64,000 nucleotides of DNA from an uncultured Erysipelotrichaceae bacterium (GTDB lineage Bacteria > Bacillota_I > Bacilli_A > RF39 > UBA660). Numbering within the stretch: position 1 is the first letter of the stretch; each line of letters opens with the position of its first letter. Below, piece after piece: positions 16,305 through 54,348 of this stretch. The position numbers and the translations under genes are program-made. Below the pieces are notes generated by a model. That model was not told the DNA's origin and did not search any database. It was given only the letters and a program-made list of their open reading frames with translations. The DNA is taken from assembly GCA_963535465.1 (NCBI GenBank), contig CAUSWF010000003.1, forward strand, positions 38,112 through 102,111, read 5' to 3'.

Positions 16305-16928
16305 TCAATTATTTATATATAGAATCATCATAAATGCCATAAGCATTGCTGTCATAATAAATATTATAGGATAAAATACTATATTTATATTAGCCCTTCT
16401 ATTTAAACTATTAAATTTATATATCTTTTCAAGTATAGCATTATTCTTATCATTTTTAATAATAGGACTATCTAAATTCAATTCTTCAGATAATTTATTA
16501 AGCTCACCCATTCTCTTAGCTTCAAAAAATTCTGATAAATAAACTGAAGCAGATGCAGTAATAACTCCTTTATAGTAAGGAATTACATCAACAGGAATCA
16601 TTGTTGCAAATAAATCAAAATTATTTTTCAAATAATTATAATCTAAAAGTTCTAAACAATCAGCATATAAACCTATTTGCAAAAAACATAATTTAGTTAT
16701 ATCACTCTTAACATCTTCATAACTATTTTTAGGAACAACTTCATATAAGGCAAAACCATTTTCATCAACAGATATACTGTCAATATTAAAATCAACAACT
16801 CTATAATCATTATCATGTACATATTTTAAACTGATATGCATTTTCTCAAATAATGAAGATAGTTCACTGTCATTTTTACATTTTTTTAAATATTCTGATA
16901 ATTTTGTATATCTATCCATACACTTCAC
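16305..16928 (-). CDS. Hypothetical tail-anchored protein (single C-terminal transmembrane helix), translationally coupled to the sigH-like gene
   Basis: 207-aa ORF starting 1 nt after the sigma gene stop. C-terminal segment IVFYPIIFIMTAMLMAFMMILYI is hydrophobic. No recognisable family. Confidence 0.55.
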   Translation of the reverse strand: MKCMDRYTKLSEYLKKCKNDSELSSLFEKMHISLKYVHDNDYRVVDFNIDSISVDENGFALYEVVPKNSYEDVKSDITKLCFLQIGLYADCLELLDYNYLKNNFDLFATMIPVDVIPYYKGVITASASVYLSEFFEAKRMGELNKLSEELNLDSPIIKNDKNNAILEKIYKFNSLNRRANINIVFYPIIFIMTAMLMAFMMILYINN

Positions 16929-17525
16929 CTATCTTAATTCTAATATATTAGTCTTAAAAAAACTAGACCTTTTAATTTGATTTCTAACTTTACGAATACT
17001 ATTTTCAATATATTTACTATTAGTGTCTAATAAATTAGCAATTTCTTTATTAGAAAAGCCATTATATTTAAGTTCAAATATTAAAGATAAATCATCAGGT
17101 AACATATTTATAATATCTCTAGTAAGACCACCATAATAATTATTTAAAAATTTATAATGACTTTCATCCATATAATCGTAATATGACAACATTTTTTCTT
17201 CTTTTAAGTATTCTAATCCCAATTTACTAATATAATTATAATTCTTCTTACAATAACTTATAAGCCTTCTATTTATACAAAGTACAGCATAAGTATAAAA
17301 TAAAGCACCAGAATCAGGATCATAATTTTTAATCGCATTATATAAAGCGATATTAGCTTCTTGCTTAATATCATCATAATCTATTTTCATATTATTACTC
17401 TTATTAAACTTATTAGTAACACTATTAATAATAGGAGTATATTTACTATATAAATTTAATATTGCATCTTCATTATTTTCTCTGACCTGGCTAATTAGTT
17501 CATAGTCGTTTATCTCATACTTCAT
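16929..17525 (-). CDS. sigH: SigH-like alternative sigma-70 family factor (short, Staphylococcus SigH/competence-sigma-like)
   Basis: 198 aa with sigma region 2 (DYDDIKQEANIALYNAIKNYDP) and region 4 HTH (NGFSNKEIANLLDTNSKYIENSIRKVRNQIK). Lies at the conserved cysS-mrnC-rlmB-sigH locus. Confidence 0.8.
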   Translation of the reverse strand: MKYEINDYELISQVRENNEDAILNLYSKYTPIINSVTNKFNKSNNMKIDYDDIKQEANIALYNAIKNYDPDSGALFYTYAVLCINRRLISYCKKNYNYISKLGLEYLKEEKMLSYYDYMDESHYKFLNNYYGGLTRDIINMLPDDLSLIFELKYNGFSNKEIANLLDTNSKYIENSIRKVRNQIKRSSFFKTNILELR

Positions 17526-17530
17526 AAATC

Positions 17531-18229
17531 CTACTTTCTATTCCTAATCACCTCATATATCATAATACCAGCAGCAACACTAGCATTTAAACTATTAGTA
17601 ACTCCATACATCGGTATCTTAACTAAGTAATCACAATTTTTTTGAACAAGATTCGACATCCCACTACCTTCATTTCCTATAATAAGACAAGTCTTCATAT
17701 CATAGTCAACACTTCTATAATCAACAGAATTATTTAAAGCAGTTCCTACTATCCAAAATCCTTCTTTCTTTAATTCTCTAATTGTATTACTTATATTAGT
17801 AACTTGAACTATATCCATATTATTTATAGTACCAACACTAGTCTTCATAACAGTAGCATTGACCTGAACCTGTCTATCTTTAGGTATTATAATTGCATCT
17901 ACTCCTGCAGCTTCACAAGTTCTAATAATAGCTCCTAAATTATGTGGATCTTCTATATGATCAAGAAGAACAATAAAATTAGGTTTTTTAGATAACACAT
18001 TTTCTAAACTCTTATATGAGTAATCAGGAATGTCTAATATTATACCTTGATTAACTCCGGGTGCCAAACGATCAATTTCTCTTTTTGAAACAATTATATA
18101 TTCAATTTTACTATTTTCAAGCATAGTTATAATATTTTGATCATTAAAACCTTCTTGTATATATATTTTATTAATTTTAGAATTATTTTCTAATAACTCT
18201 TTTGCTACATTTCTTCCATATACTAACAT
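17531..18229 (-). CDS. rlmB: TrmH-family 23S rRNA 2'-O-methyltransferase (RlmB/YacO)
   Basis: SpoU/TrmH motifs (LDHIEDPHNLGAIIRTCEAAGVDAIII, IGNEGSGMS). Conserved position after mrnC. Confidence 0.85.
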   Translation of the reverse strand: MLVYGRNVAKELLENNSKINKIYIQEGFNDQNIITMLENSKIEYIIVSKREIDRLAPGVNQGIILDIPDYSYKSLENVLSKKPNFIVLLDHIEDPHNLGAIIRTCEAAGVDAIIIPKDRQVQVNATVMKTSVGTINNMDIVQVTNISNTIRELKKEGFWIVGTALNNSVDYRSVDYDMKTCLIIGNEGSGMSNLVQKNCDYLVKIPMYGVTNSLNASVAAGIMIYEVIRNRK

Positions 18230-30282: not shown

Positions 30283-30903
30283 CTACTTCTTGTTAAAATA
30301 GATTAACTTTAAAACATAATAAACTATTATATATAAAGCTGGTAAAATTACAACTAAAATAAATCCAAAAGTAGTAGATATAAAATTTTGTAAAATCCCA
30401 ATATAAGGTATTTTAAAAACAACTTTACCATGCACCCTATTTTTAGGAACTAAATAATTATCATAATTATTATTATTGTCACCCTTAGTCTTATAAAATA
30501 CTAAACCGTCTTTTTCATATATCTTCATTATTCTATGAGTAATAACCAGACCAAAATTATAAGGATCAGCAGATGAAAAAGTAATAATGTCACCTATTTC
30601 TAATCCGTCATTTCCTCTCTTAACAACTATCGCATCAGAAACATTTATAGTAGGTTCCATAGATTTAGTTGCTACAACATAAGTTGTTATGCCATAAGTT
30701 TTATTCTTATATATATTAATAAAAAATAAAGTATATAAAATAATTACAAAAAATAAGGAAAACAAAAACACCATAATAGATATTTTCTTATTATAAACAA
30801 TATTACTTATATGTTTTCTAAAACTATTTACCATACTTAAATTATAACTACAAGAAATATAAAAAACTATTAAATACAATAAAAAAAGATGTATTTTACA
30901 CAT
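30283..30903 (-). CDS. sipW: SipW-type (ER/archaeal-type, Ser-His) signal peptidase I
   Basis: KSMEPT box with catalytic Ser. GDIITF...VITHRIM box with catalytic His. FYKTKGDNN box. C-terminal membrane anchor. Architecture matches B. subtilis SipW. True start may be an internal Met near 30834. Confidence 0.8.
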   Translation of the reverse strand: MCKIHLFLLYLIVFYISCSYNLSMVNSFRKHISNIVYNKKISIMVFLFSLFFVIILYTLFFINIYKNKTYGITTYVVATKSMEPTINVSDAIVVKRGNDGLEIGDIITFSSADPYNFGLVITHRIMKIYEKDGLVFYKTKGDNNNNYDNYLVPKNRVHGKVVFKIPYIGILQNFISTTFGFILVVILPALYIIVYYVLKLIYFNKK

Positions 30904-31447
30904 CTTTAGCTTGAATAGTAAATTTTAATACTTCATCATTTGAAAAATTAGTCACAGTTCCTTCATTCTTCCAAACTTTAACTCTATATTCCTGTTTTAC
31001 ATCATCAGATACCTTACTACTATATAAAATTAAATTTTTAACTTTATCTAATGTAATAGGTTTAACTACTTGTCTATAAGCACCATCTTCTAATTTTTCT
31101 AAAGATATTTTTATATTTTTATTATTAGATTTATCTTTCAATTTATATAAAATATTATATGTAATTTCTTTTCTATCTGCCCCTTTAAAATCAGCCTGTA
31201 TAGCAAAATTAAACACATTATTTCCATCTGACAATTTAAAAGCATCTTCATCGCTCATAGAATTAATAGAATTCATGACTATACCCTGTTTGTCATTATA
31301 ATAAAGAAAATCTATTTTCCCTCCATTTAAATTTTTATATACAACTTCTCTATCTCTATTTTTATATATATATAAACCTATTATTAGTAAACCTAATAAT
31401 ATTATTGAAATCATAACATTTATTAATATATTTCCCTTTTTATTCAT
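30896..31447 (-). CDS. Small secreted or membrane-anchored beta-rich protein, paralog A (candidate SipW substrate)
   Basis: 183 aa. N-terminal basic segment plus hydrophobic signal-like segment. Shares the C-terminal motif YRVKVWKNEG with the neighbouring paralog (YKLRVWVSEEEG). Stop overlaps the sipW start. Confidence 0.55.
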   Translation of the reverse strand: MNKKGNILINVMISIILLGLLIIGLYIYKNRDREVVYKNLNGGKIDFLYYNDKQGIVMNSINSMSDEDAFKLSDGNNVFNFAIQADFKGADRKEITYNILYKLKDKSNNKNIKISLEKLEDGAYRQVVKPITLDKVKNLILYSSKVSDDVKQEYRVKVWKNEGTVTNFSNDEVLKFTIQAKDV

Positions 31448-31456
31448 ATTATCTCC

Positions 31457-31978
31457 TTATAATGATTTTACATATATTGAAGAAGTAAATACCTTTAAAC
31501 TATTATTTATACCTTCTTCTTCTGAAACCCATACTCTTAATTTATATTTAGAACTGCCTAAACTAGGTAAATTACCCACAACTAATCTTTTGCCTTCAAT
31601 AACACTACTAGATATAAGCAGTTTAGCATAAGTTGTATTTAAAATAATCTTACCATCTTTAGACAAACTCAACTTAATATTCTGATCATTTATAGAATTA
31701 TCCATACTTGTCTTTACTAAATATATTTCATATTTTGCCTTACCTATATTATTATTCTTAACCTCTATATCAATCAAATTTTTCACATCACTATTACTAT
31801 CAATATTAATACCAGCATAATCTGAAATTGGTAATTTATTATTAACATTAATATCTCCACTTTTTTTATATGAAATTTGATAATTTTTTTTTGCAATAAA
31901 ATTAAGTAGCATCAAAGAAAACAAAGTAAAAAATAATATTATAAATAACATATATTTTATTTTCATTACCAACCCCAC
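31457..31978 (-). CDS. Small secreted or membrane-anchored beta-rich protein, paralog B (candidate SipW substrate)
   Basis: 173 aa with the same architecture as paralog A. Start could be Met5 at 31966. Confidence 0.55.
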   Translation of the reverse strand: MGLVMKIKYMLFIILFFTLFSLMLLNFIAKKNYQISYKKSGDINVNNKLPISDYAGINIDSNSDVKNLIDIEVKNNNIGKAKYEIYLVKTSMDNSINDQNIKLSLSKDGKIILNTTYAKLLISSSVIEGKRLVVGNLPSLGSSKYKLRVWVSEEEGINNSLKVFTSSIYVKSL

Positions 31979-45427: not shown

Positions 45428-45874
45428 CTAATTTCTTTTATTTTCAAAGAATTTAGACATCAATTCAAAAGATTTATCCACAGCTAAATTTGTTTCAAAA
45501 TTTACTTTAGAATTTATATCATCGTTTAAAAAAATTTTATTAACAATAAAATTATTAAGTTCATTTTGACCATTAAGTGCAGAATAAACATTTTTTATTC
45601 TAGATTGTTTAATAGCACTAGCACACATAGGACATGGATCAAGAGTAACATATATATCACAATCATCTAGCCTCCAGTTATTTAACTTCTTAGAAGCTTC
45701 TGATATTGCTATTAGCTCAGCATGAGATAAAGAACACTTATTACTTTCCTTTAAATTATAAGCTTTAGCAATAATTTGATTGTTATAAACAATAACCGCA
45801 CCAACAGGTACTTCATTATTATTAAAAGCAATATAAGCTTGTTCAAAAGCAACATCCATAAACTCTTTTTTCAT
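45428..45874 (-). CDS. tadA: tRNA-specific adenosine deaminase
   Basis: HAE (SHAELIAI) and PCxxC (DPCPMCASAI) deaminase motifs. Start set to the internal Met (MKKEFMD) preceded by GGAGA. The 28-codon upstream extension in the ORF track overlaps a structured RNA. Confidence 0.9.
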   Translation of the reverse strand: MKKEFMDVAFEQAYIAFNNNEVPVGAVIVYNNQIIAKAYNLKESNKCSLSHAELIAISEASKKLNNWRLDDCDIYVTLDPCPMCASAIKQSRIKNVYSALNGQNELNNFIVNKIFLNDDINSKVNFETNLAVDKSFELMSKFFENKRN

Positions 45875-45884
45875 ATTATCTCCA

Positions 45885-45975
45885 TATAAAAAGTGCACAT
45901 GAAAGTTGAATTTTAAGGCTGCTGTCTTCCAACTCTGACCTGGTTCAATCGCTTTCATTGCACGATTAAATTATA
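45885..45975 (-). ncRNA. ffs: Signal recognition particle RNA (small 4.5S-type), probable
   Basis: Minus strand reads GUGCAAUGAAAG-CGA-UUGAA-CCAGGUCAGAGUUGGAAGACAGCAGCC-UUAAAA-UUCAA-CUUUCAUGUGCAC. Closing helices pair, and the apical part carries the conserved domain-IV signature (CAGGUC...GGAAG...AGCAGC). Synteny with B. subtilis tadA-scr-dnaX. Confidence 0.5.
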
Positions 45976-46009
45976 TATTATTATCCTCAGTTTGTAAAAT
46001 TATTATTCA

Positions 46010-46027
46010 ATGTTTCACGTGAAACAT
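46010..46027. promoter_or_regulatory. parS site 1 (perfect palindrome ATGTTTCACGTGAAACAT)
   Basis: 16-bp core TGTTTCACGTGAAACA equals the ParB/Spo0J parS consensus. Confidence 0.8.
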
Positions 46028-46160
46028 AATATCTATACTGAGAATAGTACAAAAATAAATAAACATAATATCAATATTTTAATCACATCAAACTAAATTA
46101 CAAAATATCATAATAAATATAATTAAAATTTTAACCAAAATTAATTTTATCTCTTTTAAA

Positions 46161-46178
46161 TTATTTCCCGGGAAATAA
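46161..46178. promoter_or_regulatory. NBS-type site 1 (perfect palindrome TTATTTCCCGGGAAATAA)
   Basis: Core ATTTCCCGGGAAAT equals the B. subtilis Noc-binding-site consensus. The perfect palindrome extends to 24 bp (AAATTATTTCCCGGGAAATAATTT, 46158-46181). Confidence 0.75.
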
Positions 46179-46197
46179 TTTAAGTTATAAATAAAGA

Positions 46198-46215
46198 ATG
46201 TTTCACGTGAAACAT
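46198..46215. promoter_or_regulatory. parS site 2 (perfect)
   Basis: ATGTTTCACGTGAAACAT. The perfect palindrome extends to 22 bp (GAATGTTTCACGTGAAACATTC, 46196-46217). Confidence 0.8.
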
Positions 46216-46308
46216 TCAGTTTACCAAATTAAAATAAAAATAATTCAAAAATAAGTATAATATATAAATTAAAAATTGATATTATTCTAACGGTTATTAA
46301 TTATAAAA

Positions 46309-46326
46309 TTATTTCCCGGGAAATAA
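46309..46326. promoter_or_regulatory. NBS-type site 2 (perfect)
   Basis: TTATTTCCCGGGAAATAA. Perfect 24-bp palindrome at 46306-46329. Confidence 0.75.
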
Positions 46327-46401
46327 TTTTAATAATAATATAGAAAAAAATTAAAAAATAATAATATTTGAAATTATATATAATTTTATTAATCAATATA
46401 T

Positions 46402-46419
46402 ATGTTTCACGTGAAACAT
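46402..46419. promoter_or_regulatory. parS site 3 (perfect)
   Basis: ATGTTTCACGTGAAACAT. Confidence 0.8.
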
Positions 46420-46553
46420 TAAATCCATACTGAGAGTGGTATGAAAATAAGTAAACATAATATTAATATTTTAATAATATCAAACTAAATTATAAAATAT
46501 CATAAATAAATATGATTAAAATTTTAATCAAAATTAATTTTACCTTCTTTAAA

Positions 46554-46571
46554 TTATTTTCCAGGAAATAA
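46554..46571. promoter_or_regulatory. Degenerate NBS-type site (TTATTTTCCAGGAAATAA)
   Basis: Positional homolog of NBS site 1 in repeat unit 2. Two substitutions destroy the CCCGGG core and the symmetry. Confidence 0.5.
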
Positions 46572-46590
46572 TTTAAACTATAAATAAAGA

Positions 46591-46608
46591 ATGTTTCACG
46601 TGAAACAT
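46591..46608. promoter_or_regulatory. parS site 4 (perfect)
   Basis: ATGTTTCACGTGAAACAT, flanked GAATG...CATTC as in site 2. Confidence 0.8.
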
Positions 46609-46700
46609 TCTGTTTGCTAAATTAAAATAAAGATAATTTAAGAATAAGTATAATATAGAAATTAAAAATTGATATTATTCTGCAGTTATTAAGTATAAAA

Positions 46701-46718
46701 TTATTTCCCGGGAAATAA
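46701..46718. promoter_or_regulatory. NBS-type site 3 (perfect)
   Basis: TTATTTCCCGGGAAATAA. Confidence 0.75.
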
Positions 46719-46790
46719 TTTTAATAATAATATAGAAAATCTAAAAATAATAATAAATTGAAATTAATATAATTTAATTAATCGATATAT

Positions 46791-46808
46791 ATGTTTCACG
46801 TGAAACAT
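46791..46808. promoter_or_regulatory. parS site 5 (perfect)
   Basis: ATGTTTCACGTGAAACAT. Confidence 0.8.
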
Positions 46809-46882
46809 AGTAAGGTTATATAACAATAAAAATATATAAATTAAAGATTTAACATAATAGTTAATAACTGTATCTTATTAAA

Positions 46883-46900
46883 TTATTTCCCGGGAAATAA
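46883..46900. promoter_or_regulatory. NBS-type site 4 (perfect)
   Basis: TTATTTCCCGGGAAATAA. Confidence 0.75.
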
Positions 46901-46917
46901 TTTAATATAATAAAATA

Positions 46918-46935
46918 ATGTTTCACGTGAAACAT
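46918..46935. promoter_or_regulatory. parS site 6 (perfect)
   Basis: ATGTTTCACGTGAAACAT. Confidence 0.8.
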
Positions 46936-46985
46936 TATAAAAAATATTCACAACTGATAAAAAGACTTTAAAACATTAATATTAA

Positions 46986-47011
46986 ATAAAAAAATGAAGC
47001 CTACGCTTCAT
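46986..47011 (-). terminator. gyrA terminator overlapping the stop codon
   Basis: ATGAAGCctacGCTTCAT hairpin. On the minus strand it is followed by TTTTTTT. Confidence 0.55.
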
Positions 47012-51391: not shown

Positions 51392-52504
51392 CTACTTTCC
51401 TACTATATTTCCATTTTTCACTTGATAAATATAAGTATTTTCTAAATTTTTTCTATTTATATTTTTGATATCGGTTGTTGTTAAAATACTTTGTAAATTT
51501 TCATTACTAATAAGTTTAAGCAACAAATTTCTCTTTTTTATATCTAATTCACTAAATATATCATCTAATAATAATATAGGAGTTGTATTAGTATATTCTT
51601 TAAATATAAATATTTCTGATAATTTAAATGCAATGATAGACATCTTTTGCTGTCCTTGTGAACCAAATAGCCCTAAATCTATATCATTAAGTAATATAGA
51701 AAAATCATCTCTATGCGGTCCAATATTAGTAGTTCCATACTTCAAATCTCTATCAAAACTCTTATCAAATTCATATTTTAAACTTTTTTTAATAGAATCA
51801 TCATCATTATTGATTATATTGATAGAAGGAATATAATTGATTAATATTTTTTTTTCATTAGTTAATTTATAATAATAGTTATTTATATTTAAATTAACTT
51901 TTTCTAAATATTCTTTCCTTTTCTTATATAAAATAACTGCATTTTCTATTAATTTATCAGTTAAAATATCTAAATATTTCTTATCTGCTAATCCATTACC
52001 ATACATTACTTTTAAATATTCATTTCTTGTTTTTAACAATTTATTATATTTTGTCAAAGCAATTAAATATGACTTTGATATTTGAGATAACTGTATATTG
52101 AGCAAATTACGTCTAATTGATGGTGATCCTTTAACTATATTTAAATCATCTGGAGTAAAATAAATAATATTTAAATATGATAAATAATCAATTGCTTTTC
52201 TTATTTGAGTTTTATTTATAAACATATTTTTATTTTTTTCATCTATTTCTATTGATATTTTATTAATTATTTTATTATTATCAATAACTCCACTAACTTT
52301 AGCTAATTTTTTATTAAATTTAATAAGATTCATATTTATATTATCTCTATAAGACTTAGTTAAAGCTAAAATTACTATAGATTCTAATATATTTGTCTTA
52401 CCAGAAGCATTATCTCCTATAAATATATTTAAATTCTTACAAAATTTAATTTCAATTTTAGTATAATTTCTAAAATTAACAAGATTTAATTTTTTTAAAA
52501 TCAT
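51392..52504 (-). CDS. recF: DNA replication and repair protein RecF
   Basis: 370 aa. Walker A GDNASGKTN, ABC signature region and Walker B LLLDDIFSELD. Confidence 0.9.
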   Translation of the reverse strand: MILKKLNLVNFRNYTKIEIKFCKNLNIFIGDNASGKTNILESIVILALTKSYRDNINMNLIKFNKKLAKVSGVIDNNKIINKISIEIDEKNKNMFINKTQIRKAIDYLSYLNIIYFTPDDLNIVKGSPSIRRNLLNIQLSQISKSYLIALTKYNKLLKTRNEYLKVMYGNGLADKKYLDILTDKLIENAVILYKKRKEYLEKVNLNINNYYYKLTNEKKILINYIPSINIINNDDDSIKKSLKYEFDKSFDRDLKYGTTNIGPHRDDFSILLNDIDLGLFGSQGQQKMSIIAFKLSEIFIFKEYTNTTPILLLDDIFSELDIKKRNLLLKLISNENLQSILTTTDIKNINRKNLENTYIYQVKNGNIVGK

Positions 52505-52621
52505 TTAAAAGTTATAAAATCCCATTCTAAATCACCTATCCCCTATCATAGTGCTCCTATACATACAATGATATTATACCATAATTTAGCCTTTATTTGC
52601 ACTATTTATGAAAAAAAGTAG

Positions 52622-53086
52622 CTAATTGCTACTTCTTTTATAGTTTTCTATTCTTGTTCTCATAATTAAGTCTAATCTTGATGCTCTATTGACTTGATTT
52701 TCTATAGATCTAAAGCTACATGGAACTATTAATTCCTTACCATTATCAAAATAAATTATAGTGTTTATAGCGTCAATTTTTTTAAAAGATTTAATTCTTT
52801 TTAAATTAATCCATATACAATCATCGGAAAAAGGCGAAGTTGTAGGAAAAACTATCAAATTATCTCTATCTTGTACTATTATAGGTACTTTATATTCTGC
52901 ACCTAACATTGCTTTTGCACTCTCCTTTCTTCCCGCATAAGTACTTCCAAAATATCTACAAGAATCTTCCATAATTTGATATGGTTTTTCTGAAATCATA
53001 TATCTAGTATCATCTTCATAAACCAAACTTGAATTATTATCTGTTGGAACTATTGCTAAAGTCCCATTATTAATTTCATATTTCAT
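52622..53086 (-). CDS. comK: Competence transcription factor ComK-family protein
   Basis: 154 aa. Colinear with the B. subtilis ComK core (IMEDSCRYFGSTYAGRK vs IVDRSCRFFGSSYAGRK, PIIVQDRDNLIVFPTTS vs PIMVDPSNQIFLFPTLS, FENQVNRASRL vs FENQVYRTAWL). Confidence 0.8.
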   Translation of the reverse strand: MKYEINNGTLAIVPTDNNSSLVYEDDTRYMISEKPYQIMEDSCRYFGSTYAGRKESAKAMLGAEYKVPIIVQDRDNLIVFPTTSPFSDDCIWINLKRIKSFKKIDAINTIIYFDNGKELIVPCSFRSIENQVNRASRLDLIMRTRIENYKRSSN

Positions 53087-53148
53087 CGATTACCCCCTTA
53101 TAAAATCTAGAAAATGCGCATTTCCAACAAAAGAATAACATATTAGAT

Positions 53149-53178
53149 TGTCGAAAACTGTCGATTTTTGTCGATTTT
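53149..53178. promoter_or_regulatory. Three direct TGTCGA repeats at exact 10-bp phasing upstream of comK
   Basis: TGTCGAaaacTGTCGAttttTGTCGAtttt at 53149, 53159 and 53169, lying 63-92 nt upstream of the comK start codon. Candidate operator. Confidence 0.3.
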
Positions 53179-53179
53179 A

Positions 53180-53217
53180 AATAAAAAAATAAAAATATCA
53201 ACAAAATTTGTTGATAT
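53180..53217 (-). terminator. dnaN rho-independent terminator
   Basis: Inverted repeat ATATCAACAAAaTTTGTTGATAT (53195-53217). On the minus strand it is followed by TTTATTTTTTTATTT. Confidence 0.55.
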
Positions 53218-53226
53218 TTTTAATAA

Positions 53227-54348
53227 TTACCAAGTTCTTATAGGTAATACTAATTGTGTTAATGTTGAATCTTCTGTTGATTTTATTAATATTGGTTTAA
53301 CTTCCCCAACAAAATGAATATCCACAGTTTCTGTTGAAAATGTTTTTAAAGCATCCATCATATATCTAGCACTAAAAGATATTTTAATATTTTGATCATT
53401 ATTTTTTGATACTTTCATTTTTTCTTCTACTTTACCAACTTCTAATGAACTACTCTTTAATATTAATAAATTATCATTAGTTTCTAAAGTAACAATATTT
53501 TTTTCTTTATCACTTGTAAGAATAGATACCCTATCAATAACATCATATAAATCATTTAAATTAGCTGTAACTATTAAAGCCGAATCTTCTGGCAATAAAT
53601 TTGATGTATTTGGATATGTTCCATTAATTAATCTTGATTGAAATTTTAAATTACCATACTTAAATAATATTTTATTACTAAAAATATGTAATTCCAATTC
53701 CTTATCATCATTTATTATTTTCGCAAATTCACTAATATTATGACTAGGAACTACAATATTATAATTTTCATCACTTACTTTTTCTAATTTAACAACTTTT
53801 CTCGCTAATCTATATGAATCTGTAGAATTACATTCTAATATATCCCCTACTATATTTAAATTAATACCAGTTAAAACAGGTTTCGTTTCTTCTGTAGAAG
53901 CTGCAAAAGCTGTTTGATTAACTAAATCTCTAAAAATATATGAATTTATTGATACTTTTTTCTTAGATTCATCTAAATCAATACTAGGATATTCTGATTC
54001 ATTTATACCATTTAAATTAAATTCACTATTTTCTGTAAATATAATAATTTTAGAATCGTCTAAGACTTCTATATTTAAAAACTTATCTGATAATTTTCTT
54101 ACTATATCTAATATATATTTACCTTGAATAATAATACTACCTTCTTCATCTATAATAAAATCATCGTTTAATGCTTCTATAAATGTTTGTATAGTAATAT
54201 CATTATCACTTGCTGTTAAAGTTAATTTATTCTTTTTTACTTCAAATTTTATTCCTGATAAACTAGGTATTAAGTTTTTAGTAGAAATAGCCTTTGATAC
54301 TTTATTTAATGCCTCTAATAATAATTCTCTTTTTATTTGTATTTTCAT
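53227..54348 (-). CDS. dnaN: DNA polymerase III beta sliding clamp
   Basis: 373 aa with three-domain beta-clamp topology. Conserved dnaA-dnaN order. Confidence 0.95.
   Translation of the reverse strand: MKIQIKRELLLEALNKVSKAISTKNLIPSLSGIKFEVKKNKLTLTASDNDITIQTFIEALNDDFIIDEEGSIIIQGKYILDIVRKLSDKFLNIEVLDDSKIIIFTENSEFNLNGINESEYPSIDLDESKKKVSINSYIFRDLVNQTAFAASTEETKPVLTGINLNIVGDILECNSTDSYRLARKVVKLEKVSDENYNIVVPSHNISEFAKIINDDKELELHIFSNKILFKYGNLKFQSRLINGTYPNTSNLLPEDSALIVTANLNDLYDVIDRVSILTSDKEKNIVTLETNDNLLILKSSSLEVGKVEEKMKVSKNNDQNIKISFSARYMMDALKTFSTETVDIHFVGEVKPILIKSTEDSTLTQLVLPIRTW

What the first reader, a model, noticed from the sequence alone, without database searches (positions are those of the whole stretch)
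52505..53226. ComK homolog between recF and dnaN, with 10-bp-phased TGTCGA direct repeats upstream
In Firmicutes the dnaN-recF interval normally holds the small S4-domain gene yaaA. Here it holds a clear ComK-family competence regulator (154 aa) with its own terminator-insulated promoter region. In that region, 63-92 nt upstream of the start, TGTCGA recurs three times at exactly 10-bp spacing, one helical turn apart, which is typical of an operator for a face-of-helix binder. Together with the SigH-like competence-type sigma factor in this window, this suggests a natural-transformation regulon. Placing comK in the origin-proximal dnaA operon neighbourhood would couple its gene dosage to replication initiation.
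Basis: partly seen in the sequence, partly recalled or inferred. Interest (0 to 1): 0.55.

Follow-up and report, generated by a model that had tools for sequence, protein, structure and literature searches.

The report
Spo0A-type boxes upstream of comK
A competence-regulator (ComK) gene sits between dnaN and recF in this uncultured gut bacterium and about 90 sampled relatives, and the three phased repeats in its promoter match the binding site of Spo0A, the sporulation master regulator, so Spo0A probably switches comK directly.

Summary
ORF 52622-53086(-) is a full-length ComK-family protein (Pfam E=2e-45). TGTCGA occurs three times at exact 10-bp spacing (53149/53159/53169), nowhere else in that arrangement in the window and in 0 of 100 shuffles.

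The organism belongs to the uncultured gut order RF39. All 80 related species genomes, and seven more distant lineages, keep dnaA-dnaN-comK-recF-gyrB.

Their comK promoters share one architecture:
- dnaN terminator
- three 10-bp units, consensus TT(C/T)GACAAA(A/T)
- 11 nt
- TG-extended -10, with no -35 at 16-18 bp
- a covarying hairpin at the predicted mRNA 5' end
- a strong ribosome-binding site

The unit is the reverse complement of the Spo0A "0A box" TGTCGAA, and 10-bp tandem spacing is how Spo0A binds. A metagenome scan found the same triple array next to two unrelated spo0A genes, orphan histidine kinases, spoVS, soj and five comK lineages.

Best reading (confidence about 0.6): Spo0A~P controls, and probably activates, an insulated single-gene comK unit. 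I could not verify spo0A in this genome. No competence-machinery genes lie in the window, and the gene-dosage idea is untested.

This is a new member of known kinds, of moderate interest.

The parts
53227..54348 (-). dnaN (DNA polymerase III beta clamp), the upstream neighbour
   Evidence: ORF list. 70-80% identical homologues lie immediately upstream of comK in the related loci whose held sequence reaches that far. Pfam DNA_pol3_beta at the same position in L201-L203.
53190..53222 (-). dnaN intrinsic terminator: 15-bp A+T-rich stem, 3-nt loop, followed by a T-run (53176-53189)
   Evidence: RNA fold dG -13.4 kcal/mol, z -5.0, 0 of 200 shuffles as stable. Relatives have a hairpin plus T-run at the same place.
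53169..53175 (-). Distal 0A-like box (+ strand TGTCGAT; gene sense ATCGACA), about -50 to -44 from the predicted start site
   Evidence: Unit 1 of the aligned promoters: 35 of 81 have at least 6/7 identity to TTCGACA in register, and unit 1 was not used to set the register.
53159..53165 (-). Middle 0A-like box (+ strand TGTCGAT; gene sense ATCGACA), about -40 to -34. It carries the only -35-like hexamer, 21 bp from the -10.
   Evidence: A TTGACA-like hexamer at 21-bp spacing occurs in 44 of 81 promoters; none occurs at 14-20 or 22-24 bp.
53149..53155 (-). Proximal box, a perfect 0A box (+ strand TGTCGAA; gene sense TTCGACA), about -30 to -24. It ends 11 nt before the -10 hexamer.
   Evidence: Unit 3 is the best-conserved unit (47 of 81 at 6/7 or better; G 63, A 76, C 70, A 64 of the 77 best-anchored promoters).
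53132..53140 (-). TG-extended -10 element TGTTATTCT (hexamer TATTCT at 53132-53137)
   Evidence: Read from the sequence. TG is present in 75 of 81 aligned promoters, and T at position 1 and A at position 2 of the hexamer in 81 of 81.
53107..53127 (-). Leader stem-loop starting at the predicted transcription start (about 53125, inferred, not mapped). It is weak in the window (7 bp with wobble pairs).
   Evidence: About 52 of 81 relatives have GAAAAC/GTTTTC-type stems starting 4-8 nt after the -10. Compensatory variants include GAAAGC/GCTTTC, GGAAAC/GTTTCC and GGAAGCC/GGCTTCC, and loop length varies.
53093..53097 (-). Ribosome-binding site GGGGG, 6 nt before the ATG
   Evidence: AGGGGGA is conserved in nearly all relatives.
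52622..53086 (-). comK-family coding sequence, 154 aa
   Evidence: Pfam PF06338 E=2.3e-45. More than 1100 homologues, 70-77% identical for the best 120. 71 invariant columns among 21 sequences. Intact in all 80 related genomes.
52611..52639 (-). comK intrinsic terminator, overlapping the last codons and followed by a T-run
   Evidence: RNA fold dG -12.4, z -4.2. The hairpin was also picked up by the terminator scan on the opposite strand.
52573..52581 (-). recF's own extended -10 (TGGTATAAT), which shows that comK is a separate transcription unit
   Evidence: Read from the sequence. This is inference from consensus only.
51392..52504 (-). recF, the downstream neighbour
   Evidence: It sits at the same position in all related loci that extend that far.

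Best explanation
The dnaN-recF interval holds a self-contained, single-gene comK unit. Its promoter is a sigma-A type extended -10 promoter with no usable -35. In place of the -35, three head-to-tail 7-bp boxes sit at about -50 to -24, 10 bp apart, with the last one ending 11 nt before the -10. They read TTCGACA in gene sense, which is TGTCGAA on the other strand.

These are Spo0A '0A boxes'. Phosphorylated Spo0A, the master response regulator for stationary phase and sporulation in Firmicutes, binds them in tandem on one face of the helix and thereby sets comK transcription. The direction is most likely activation, by contacting or positioning RNA polymerase where a -35 is missing, as at the Spo0A-activated spoIIG and spoIIE promoters and at PhoB-dependent pho-box promoters. 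Repression by occlusion is the alternative.

The transcript starts with a small stem-loop, probably an mRNA-stabilising 5' hairpin, and has a strong ribosome-binding site.

Shown here: the anatomy, its conservation, the identity to the 0A-box consensus, and the association of the same array with spo0A and sporulation genes in other bacteria. Inferred: that Spo0A is the binder in this organism, the direction of control, the start site, and that this ComK controls DNA uptake.
For: 1. Motif identity. The window has one perfect TGTCGAA and two TGTCGAT boxes. The consensus of each unit across the 77 best-anchored of 81 promoters is TT(C/T)GACAAA(A/T). TGTCGAA is the published 0A box, and two boxes 3 bp apart (a 10-bp period) form a footprinted Spo0A site (PMC2731898). 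The G2, C4 and G5 contact bases (PMC3485338) are present in all three window boxes.

2. Conservation in register. At least 6/7 matches to TTCGACA occur in 35, 37 and 47 of 81 promoters at units 1, 2 and 3, against 0.18% per position in the flanking DNA. The spacing to the -10 is fixed.

3. Deep conservation. Lineages whose ComK is only 27-44% identical still have dnaN-[3x TTCGACA]-comK (recF follows in the three whose contig extends that far). Two of three sampled loci of a second ComK clade also keep the phased boxes.

4. Specificity. The site is unique in the 64-kb window. In about 670 kb of RF39 loci, 59 of 66 tandem hits lie at the comK promoter.

5. Guilt by association. A metagenome scan for TCGACA-N4-TCGACA-N4-TCGACA gave 59 non-satellite arrays. 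In 26 of them all three hexamers are preceded by T, against about 1.4% expected. They flank:
- two unrelated spo0A genes (L085/L136/L182 and L090; Pfam Spo0A_C)
- orphan histidine kinases (L131, L133, L189)
- spoVS, spoIIID, soj and a parB-like gene
- five comK lineages

6. Precedent. Spo0A~P acts directly at B. subtilis PcomK (PMC3297582).

7. Plausibility. RF39 is reported to retain many sporulation genes and is predicted able to sporulate, for which spo0A is required (PMC10868615).

8. No -35. At 16-18 bp the mean match to TTGACA is 1.4/6 or less, and 0 of 81 promoters reach 5/6. At 21 bp, 44 of 81 do.
Against: - spo0A was not found or verified in this genome or in any RF39 sequence I could reach. 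The window has no spo0A and no sporulation-specific genes at the usual syntenic places (no spoIIE next to tilS, no yabP/yabQ next to divIC, no spoVT after mfd).
- One study scored RF39 genomes as non-sporulating (PMC12536801).
- In relatives the base equivalent to the G5 contact is conserved in only 39-58% of boxes (C or T), while the base equivalent to the 'N' of TGNCGAA is nearly invariant. The clade motif is therefore TGTC(G/A)AA rather than a textbook 0A box.
- A box at -30 to -24 lies inside the promoter spacer, which would also fit repression.
- The register used for units 2 and 3 was chosen partly by their GACA matches, which inflates those two counts.
- There are no binding or expression data.
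Confidence: 0.6

Rival explanations
1. The repeats are bound by a different tandem-binding regulator, for example an OmpR/PhoB-type or another orphan response regulator of RF39. The resemblance to the 0A box is then convergent, or inherited from a Spo0A that has since been replaced.
For: Direct repeats on one helical face that replace the -35 are typical of winged-helix response regulators (own knowledge). The clade motif has a strong GACA core and a variable G5-equivalent base. spo0A is unverified here, and RF39 was scored non-sporulating by one tool.
Against: The period is exactly 10 bp in 81 promoters, not the 11 bp of PhoP, WalR or PhoB-type sites. The consensus is the 0A box to the base. 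The identical array flanks spo0A genes and sporulation genes in unrelated Firmicutes. No response regulator is encoded near the locus.
Confidence: 0.2
2. ComK binds its own promoter at the repeats (positive autoregulation, as in B. subtilis), having evolved direct-repeat specificity in this clade.
For: ComK autoregulates in B. subtilis (PMC3297582). The site is essentially specific to comK in the RF39 DNA that I hold.
Against: There is no canonical ComK box (a pair of AAAA-N5-TTTT) in the window promoter, and only 1 of 81 relatives has one. The same array occurs next to spo0A, kinase and spoV genes in high-GC Clostridia-like contigs that carry no comK on the held sequence.
Confidence: 0.07
3. 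The boxes serve replication control rather than transcription. They would be Spo0A or DnaA sites belonging to the origin region next to dnaA-dnaN, as with the 0A boxes in B. subtilis oriC.
For: The location is origin-proximal. Spo0A~P can block replication initiation at 0A boxes in the origin (PMC2731898). DnaA-box-like TGTGGAWAA sequences lie just upstream of the repeats in about 10 relatives. A few tandem hits lie upstream of dnaA.
Against: The boxes keep a fixed 11-nt distance to the comK -10 in 81 promoters and travel with comK in distant lineages. The boxes match the DnaA box TTATCCACA at only 6-7 of 9 positions (by inspection of the consensus, no tool call). A dual role cannot be excluded.
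Confidence: 0.05
4. There is no specific binder: phased A/T tracts give intrinsic DNA curvature or an UP-like element, or the repeats are overlapping weak -35 hexamers.
For: The units alternate a GACA core with A/T tracts at helical phasing. TTGACA is the -35 consensus.
Against: The G, C and A bases of the core are the conserved part, not the A/T tracts. No hexamer sits at a usable 16-18 bp spacing. The identical 7-mer array recurs in GC-rich genomes.
Confidence: 0.03

Closest known systems
B. subtilis comK promoter with direct Spo0A~P sites (A1-A3, R1-R2; Mirouze et al. 2012, PMC3297582)
   Same: A ComK-family gene whose promoter carries several 0A-box-like sequences, so that Spo0A~P level gates competence. 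One site overlaps the -35 region.
   Different: In B. subtilis the five sites are dispersed and each has one or two mismatches. The promoter has a normal -35 and two ComK boxes, and is also governed by Rok, CodY, AbrB and DegU. Here there are three contiguous boxes at exact 10-bp phasing in place of the -35, no ComK box, and the gene sits between dnaN and recF.
Spo0A-activated sigma-A promoters spoIIG and spoIIE of B. subtilis (own knowledge; the primary papers are not held in the library)
   Same: 0A boxes overlap a -35-like hexamer that lies 21-22 bp from the -10 instead of 17 bp. Activation depends on Spo0A~P binding weak tandem boxes. Here the TTGACA-like hexamer lies 21 bp from the -10.
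   Different: Those promoters have additional upstream sites and no box in the spacer at -30 to -24. They drive sporulation genes, not comK.
Pho-box promoters (PhoB/PhoP) (own knowledge)
   Same: Tandem direct repeats replace the -35 and end about 10 bp upstream of the -10. The activator contacts sigma region 4.
   Different: The pho-box period is 11 bp and the core sequence differs (CTGTCAT / TTAACA). Here the period is 10 bp.
B. subtilis origin-proximal cluster dnaA-dnaN-yaaA(rlbA)-recF-yaaB(remB)-gyrB-gyrA (own knowledge)
   Same: The order of dnaA, dnaN, recF, gyrB and gyrA is the same.
   Different: The slot between dnaN and recF holds comK instead of the S4-domain gene, in all 80 RF39 genomes sampled and in more distant lineages. 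There is no gene between recF and gyrB.

Membership tests
ComK family (Pfam PF06338) | Full-length match to the ComK domain model above the curated threshold | tested here: met
   E=2.3e-45, 154.5 bits against a cut-off of 22.3, model positions 3-152 of 152. Homologues are named 'competence protein ComK' by NCBI. There is no NCBIfam model hit and no solved structure of a relative.
ComK family (functional definition from B. subtilis) | Autoregulation through a ComK box (two AAAA-N5-TTTT boxes 8, 18 or 31 bp apart) in its own promoter | tested here: not met
   None in the window promoter; 1 of 81 related promoters has one.
ComK family (functional definition from B. subtilis) | Controls late competence operons (comG, comE, comF, dprA, ssbB) present in the same genome | not testable with these tools
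   No such genes in the 64-kb window or in the +/-10 kb around comK in relatives.
Spo0A operator (0A boxes) | 7-bp core TGTCGAA with the contact bases G2, C4 and G5 | tested here: met
   Window boxes are TGTCGAA, TGTCGAT and TGTCGAT, all with G2, C4 and G5. Consensus and contacts come from PMC2731898 and PMC3485338. In relatives G5 is only 39-58% conserved.
Spo0A operator (0A boxes) | Tandem head-to-tail boxes separated by 3 bp (10-bp period) | tested here: met
   Exact 10-bp spacing in the window and the same register in the aligned relatives. A footprinted precedent is in PMC2731898.
Spo0A operator (0A boxes) | The same element occurs at bona fide Spo0A-regulon genes | tested here: met
   Triple arrays lie next to two unrelated spo0A genes, orphan histidine kinases, spoVS, spoIIID and soj in metagenome contigs. 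These are other organisms, not RF39.
Spo0A operator (0A boxes) | A spo0A gene in the same genome, and binding by Spo0A~P | not testable with these tools
   There is no spo0A in the window or in any held RF39 locus. The literature implies spo0A in RF39 (PMC10868615), but another study predicts RF39 does not sporulate.
OmpR/PhoB/WalR-type direct-repeat sites | Hexamer repeats with a 5-bp spacer (11-bp period) | tested here: not met
   The period is 10 bp in the window and in relatives.
DnaA box | 9-mer TTATCCACA with at most 1 mismatch | tested here: not met
   The repeat units match at only 6-7 of 9 positions (consensus compared by eye, not a tool result). Separate DnaA-box-like sequences occur further upstream in about 10 relatives.
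SigH (the window's sigma ORF 16929-17525) | Score above the NCBIfam SigH equivalog cut-off, and the sigH syntenic position | tested here: inconclusive
   The best hits are SigH models, but at 51.7 bits against a cut-off of 294.8. The position cysS-mrnC-rlmB-[sigma]-...-secE-nusG matches B. subtilis sigH (for cysS, mini-RNase III, rlmB and the sigma ORF; for secE; nusG and the rpl genes assigned by position from the ORF list; B. subtilis order from own knowledge).

The most novel reading that the evidence does not exclude
In RF39 and allied reduced-genome gut Bacilli, Spo0A may have been kept, even where sporulation is eroded or lost, mainly as the switch for a ComK-family regulator. That regulator has been fixed inside the replication and recombination gene cluster (dnaA-dnaN-comK-recF-gyrBA). 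On this reading the sporulation master regulator is repurposed as a competence or DNA-recombination switch. Alternatively, this ComK controls replication and repair genes rather than DNA uptake.
Probability: 0.15. Interest if true: 0.6.

Novelty: new member of a known kind. Interest (0 to 1): 0.4.

Why it matters
RF39 bacteria are abundant in gut samples but uncultured, and almost nothing is known about their gene regulation. A conserved, compact promoter that wires a Spo0A-type signal straight to a ComK-family regulator gives three things:
- a concrete, testable hint that these organisms still run a Spo0A pathway;
- a hint that they may become naturally transformable, which is useful for future genetics and relevant to gene flow in the gut;
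- a clean natural example of a three-box Spo0A promoter for mechanistic study.

The invariant placement of comK between dnaN and recF is also a handy synteny marker for the clade.

Tried and rejected
- Verifying spo0A in RF39. tblastn with two Spo0A sequences against all 1.4 Mb of held DNA found spo0A only in non-RF39 contigs. The supplements of PMC10868615 hold no spo0A or KO entries, and RF39 family names are absent from its text.
- My remembered extended consensus 'TTTGTCRAA' for Spo0A could not be confirmed in the library, so I did not use it as evidence.
- The primary spoIIG paper (PMC205050) is not held. The 21-22-bp spacer analogy therefore rests on my own knowledge.
- The fourth TGTCGA(A), at 17652-17658(-), lies inside the rlmB coding sequence in a conserved methylase motif. 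I treat it as chance.
- The ComK-box hypothesis is rejected for this promoter.
- The generic sigma-70 scan found no significant promoter (10 hits against 8.3 expected). The promoter call rests on the conserved extended -10 instead.
- A literature search for RF39 plus competence or ComK found nothing.
- About half of the metagenome hits were satellite-like tandem arrays, apparently from eukaryotes or other bacteria. I set them aside.

Full report
**What is at the coordinates.** The interval 52505-53226 lies between recF (51392-52504, minus strand) and dnaN (53227-54348, minus strand), with dnaA further up and gyrB and gyrA further down. It contains one ORF, 52622-53086 (-), of 154 aa. This ORF matches the Pfam ComK model over its whole length (E=2.3e-45). 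It has no NCBIfam hit and no relative of solved structure.

On the + strand, TGTCGA occurs at 53149, 53159 and 53169, exactly 10 bp apart. The hexamer occurs only once more in the 64-kb window, at 17653, inside the rlmB coding sequence. The triple pattern is unique in the window even with three mismatches and never arose in 100 shuffles.

**The unit is insulated.** A 15-bp hairpin followed by a T-run lies just after dnaN (53190-53222; dG -13.4 kcal/mol, z -5.0). A second hairpin overlaps the end of comK (52611-52639; dG -12.4, z -4.2). recF then has its own TGGTATAAT element (52573-52581, read). comK is therefore a single-gene transcription unit.

**Who carries it.** The protein has more than 1100 homologues; the best 120 are 70-77% identical, nearly all 148-152 aa, and come from uncultured 'Bacilli', 'Tenericutes' or 'Mycoplasmatota' gut genomes. 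A scan of one genome per species returned 80 loci. One of them is Candidatus Faecimonas intestinavium. Its genus Candidatus Faecimonas is the GTDB genus CAG-877, family CAG-611, order RF39 (PMC8035907).

Every one of the 80 loci has the order dnaA-dnaN-comK-recF-gyrB as far as its contig reaches, and comK is intact in all. Four metagenome contigs whose ComK is only 27-44% identical, and whose DnaN is 43-61% identical, also have comK directly after dnaN; recF follows in the three whose contig extends that far. So do three contigs of a second ComK clade. The placement is a deep, clade-wide trait, not a local accident.

**Promoter anatomy from comparison.** Aligning the 81 upstream regions on a conserved TG-extended -10 puts the repeats in one register. 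TG is present in 75 of 81 promoters, and T at position 1 and A at position 2 of the hexamer in 81 of 81. There are three 10-bp units with consensus TT(C/T)GACAAA(A/T), and the last GACA ends 8 nt before the TG, which is 11 nt before the -10 hexamer.

In-register matches of at least 6/7 to TTCGACA occur in 35, 37 and 47 of 81 promoters at units 1, 2 and 3. The rate in the flanking DNA is 0.18% per position. Unit 1 was not used to set the register; units 2 and 3 partly were, so their counts are somewhat inflated.

No -35-like hexamer exists at 16-18 bp: the mean match is 1.4/6 or less, and 0 of 81 promoters reach 5/6. A TTGACA-like hexamer sits 21 bp from the -10 in 44 of 81 promoters.

Downstream, starting 4-8 nt after the -10, about 52 of 81 leaders form a GAAAAC/GTTTTC-type stem-loop of 6-9 bp. 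That position is about where transcription should begin. The stems show compensatory changes (A-T to G-C at two stem positions, free covariation of the inner pairs), and loop length varies. This points to an RNA structure rather than a protein operator. The Faecimonas-like subgroup instead has AATTTCATGTTT. A strong AGGGGGA ribosome-binding site follows.

In the window these parts are:
- boxes at 53169-53175, 53159-53165 and 53149-53155
- extended -10 at 53132-53140
- hairpin at 53107-53127
- ribosome-binding site at 53093-53097

**What the repeats are.** Read on the + strand, the window boxes are TGTCGAA, TGTCGAT and TGTCGAT. TGTCGAA is the Spo0A 0A box, and two boxes separated by 3 bp form a footprinted Spo0A site (PMC2731898). 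Spo0A makes specific contacts with G2, C4 and G5 (PMC3485338), and all three bases are present in each window box.

To ask where such arrays occur in nature, I scanned metagenome contigs for TCGACA-N4-TCGACA-N4-TCGACA. About half of the 120 hits were satellite-like arrays. Among 59 non-satellite arrays, 26 had a T before all three hexamers, against about 1.4% expected. That T was not part of the search pattern and completes the 7-mer 0A box.

The flanking genes include:
- five ComK lineages, including the window's own species
- two mutually unrelated spo0A genes, one on L085/L136/L182 (Pfam Spo0A_C plus receiver domain) and one on L090
- cytoplasmic orphan histidine kinases (L131, L133, L189)
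- spoVS, spoIIID, soj/parA and a parB-like gene

The triple 10-bp-phased array therefore behaves as a Spo0A-type operator in endospore-forming Firmicutes. Spo0A~P is already known to act directly at the B. subtilis comK promoter (PMC3297582).

**Is Spo0A available in this organism?** I could not test this. A comparative study reports that RF39 retains a reduced set of sporulation genes. It calls spo0A an absolute requirement for sporulation and predicts that RF39 can form spores, while lacking spoIIE and spoIIAB (PMC10868615). Another tool scored RF39 genomes as non-sporulating (PMC12536801).

Consistent with a reduced programme, the window has SpoVG and a SigH-like sigma factor. That factor sits in the sigH syntenic slot but scores far below the SigH cut-offs. 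The window has no spoIIE, yabP/yabQ or spoVT at their usual positions.

**Mechanism.** I commit to Spo0A~P binding the three boxes in tandem and controlling an extended -10 promoter that lacks a -35. Activation seems more likely than repression, roughly 55:45 within this explanation, for three reasons. The distance to the -10 is fixed across very divergent lineages, which suggests a stereospecific contact with RNA polymerase. A -35-like hexamer lies at 21 bp, as at spoIIG and spoIIE. The site ends about 10 bp upstream of the -10, as at pho-box promoters. The last two points are from my own knowledge. Repression by occlusion remains possible because the proximal box lies in the spacer.

**Rivals.**
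- A different tandem-binding regulator is the main alternative (0.2). Against it: the period is 10 bp, not 11 bp, and the motif is the 0A box to the base.
- ComK autoregulation is unlikely, because no ComK box is present and the same array occurs on contigs without comK.
- A replication-control role is possible as an extra function only, because the boxes track the comK -10.
- Pure DNA curvature is unlikely, because the conserved bases are the G/C-containing core.

**Specificity.** With a weight matrix built from relatives only, the window site scores 29.3 bits, the next best 8.7, and the maxima of shuffled sequences averaged 12.1 +/- 2.2. In about 670 kb of RF39 loci, 59 tandem hits lie at the comK promoter, 7 lie upstream of dnaA and none lie elsewhere.

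**Verdict.** The competence-regulon and gene-dosage ideas remain untested. The gene is already annotated as ComK in public genomes, and the Spo0A-to-comK link is known in B. subtilis. The new points are the clade-wide dnaN-comK-recF placement and the compact three-box promoter in an uncultured gut order. This is a new member of known kinds, with interest 0.4.

Noticed in passing
window 45975-47000 (between gyrA and the SRP RNA/tadA): About 1 kb with no ORF of 40 aa or more, no tRNA and no Rfam hit. It holds six perfect copies of the palindrome TGTTTCACGTGAAACA (46011, 46199, 46403, 46592, 46792, 46919) interleaved with five copies of ATTTCCCGGGAAAT (46163, 46311, 46556 with 2 mismatches, 46703, 46885). 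From memory, these equal the B. subtilis parS (Spo0J/ParB) site and the Noc-binding site. An origin-proximal array mixing both looks unusual and deserves its own analysis.
   Followed up: partly
window 53107-53127 and the same position in L001-L080: A conserved stem-loop at the predicted 5' end of the comK mRNA (GAAAAC/GTTTTC type), with compensatory changes and variable loop length. The Faecimonas-like subgroup instead has AATTTCATGTTT, which can pair across the ribosome-binding site.
   Followed up: partly
L002-L075 (31 of 81 loci), upstream of the boxes; not seen in the window: A conserved element AATAATAT-WW-RT-RRR lies at about -49, -59, -69 or -79 from the TG of the -10, in steps of about 10 bp. 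This suggests a second, helically phased site or an upstream promoter. In some loci it overlaps the dnaN terminator.
   Followed up: partly
L004, L006, L013, L051, L076, L079, L080, L202 and others, between the dnaN stop and the boxes: DnaA-box-like sequences (TGTGGAAAA or TGTGGATAA; perfect in L202). In L020 and L036 the dnaN terminator stems are themselves built from ATCCACA/TGTGGAT. This hints at DnaA binding downstream of dnaN.
   Followed up: partly
window 16305-16928 (-): A 207-aa ORF with no Pfam or NCBIfam family sits directly after the SigH-like sigma gene (16929-17525), abutting it, and before secE. B. subtilis has rpmGB in this slot.
   Followed up: no
window 30283-31978 (-): A SipW-like (archaeal-type) signal peptidase I (30283-30903) is preceded by two ORFs with no family (30896-31447, 31457-31978). 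The arrangement recalls the B. subtilis tapA-sipW-tasA operon, which is under indirect Spo0A control (the operon comparison is from memory).
   Followed up: no
window 45428-45958 (-) and 45878-45974 (-): The listed tadA-like ORF overlaps the small SRP RNA at its 5' end. The true start is probably the internal Met (MKKEFMD...), so the first 28 or so codons are spurious.
   Followed up: no
L085/L136/L182 and L090 (metagenome contigs, GC 0.58-0.60): Two unrelated clostridial-type spo0A genes each have three 10-bp-phased TGTCGA boxes 140-185 nt upstream, in the sense orientation. This looks like a conserved autoregulatory array.
   Followed up: partly
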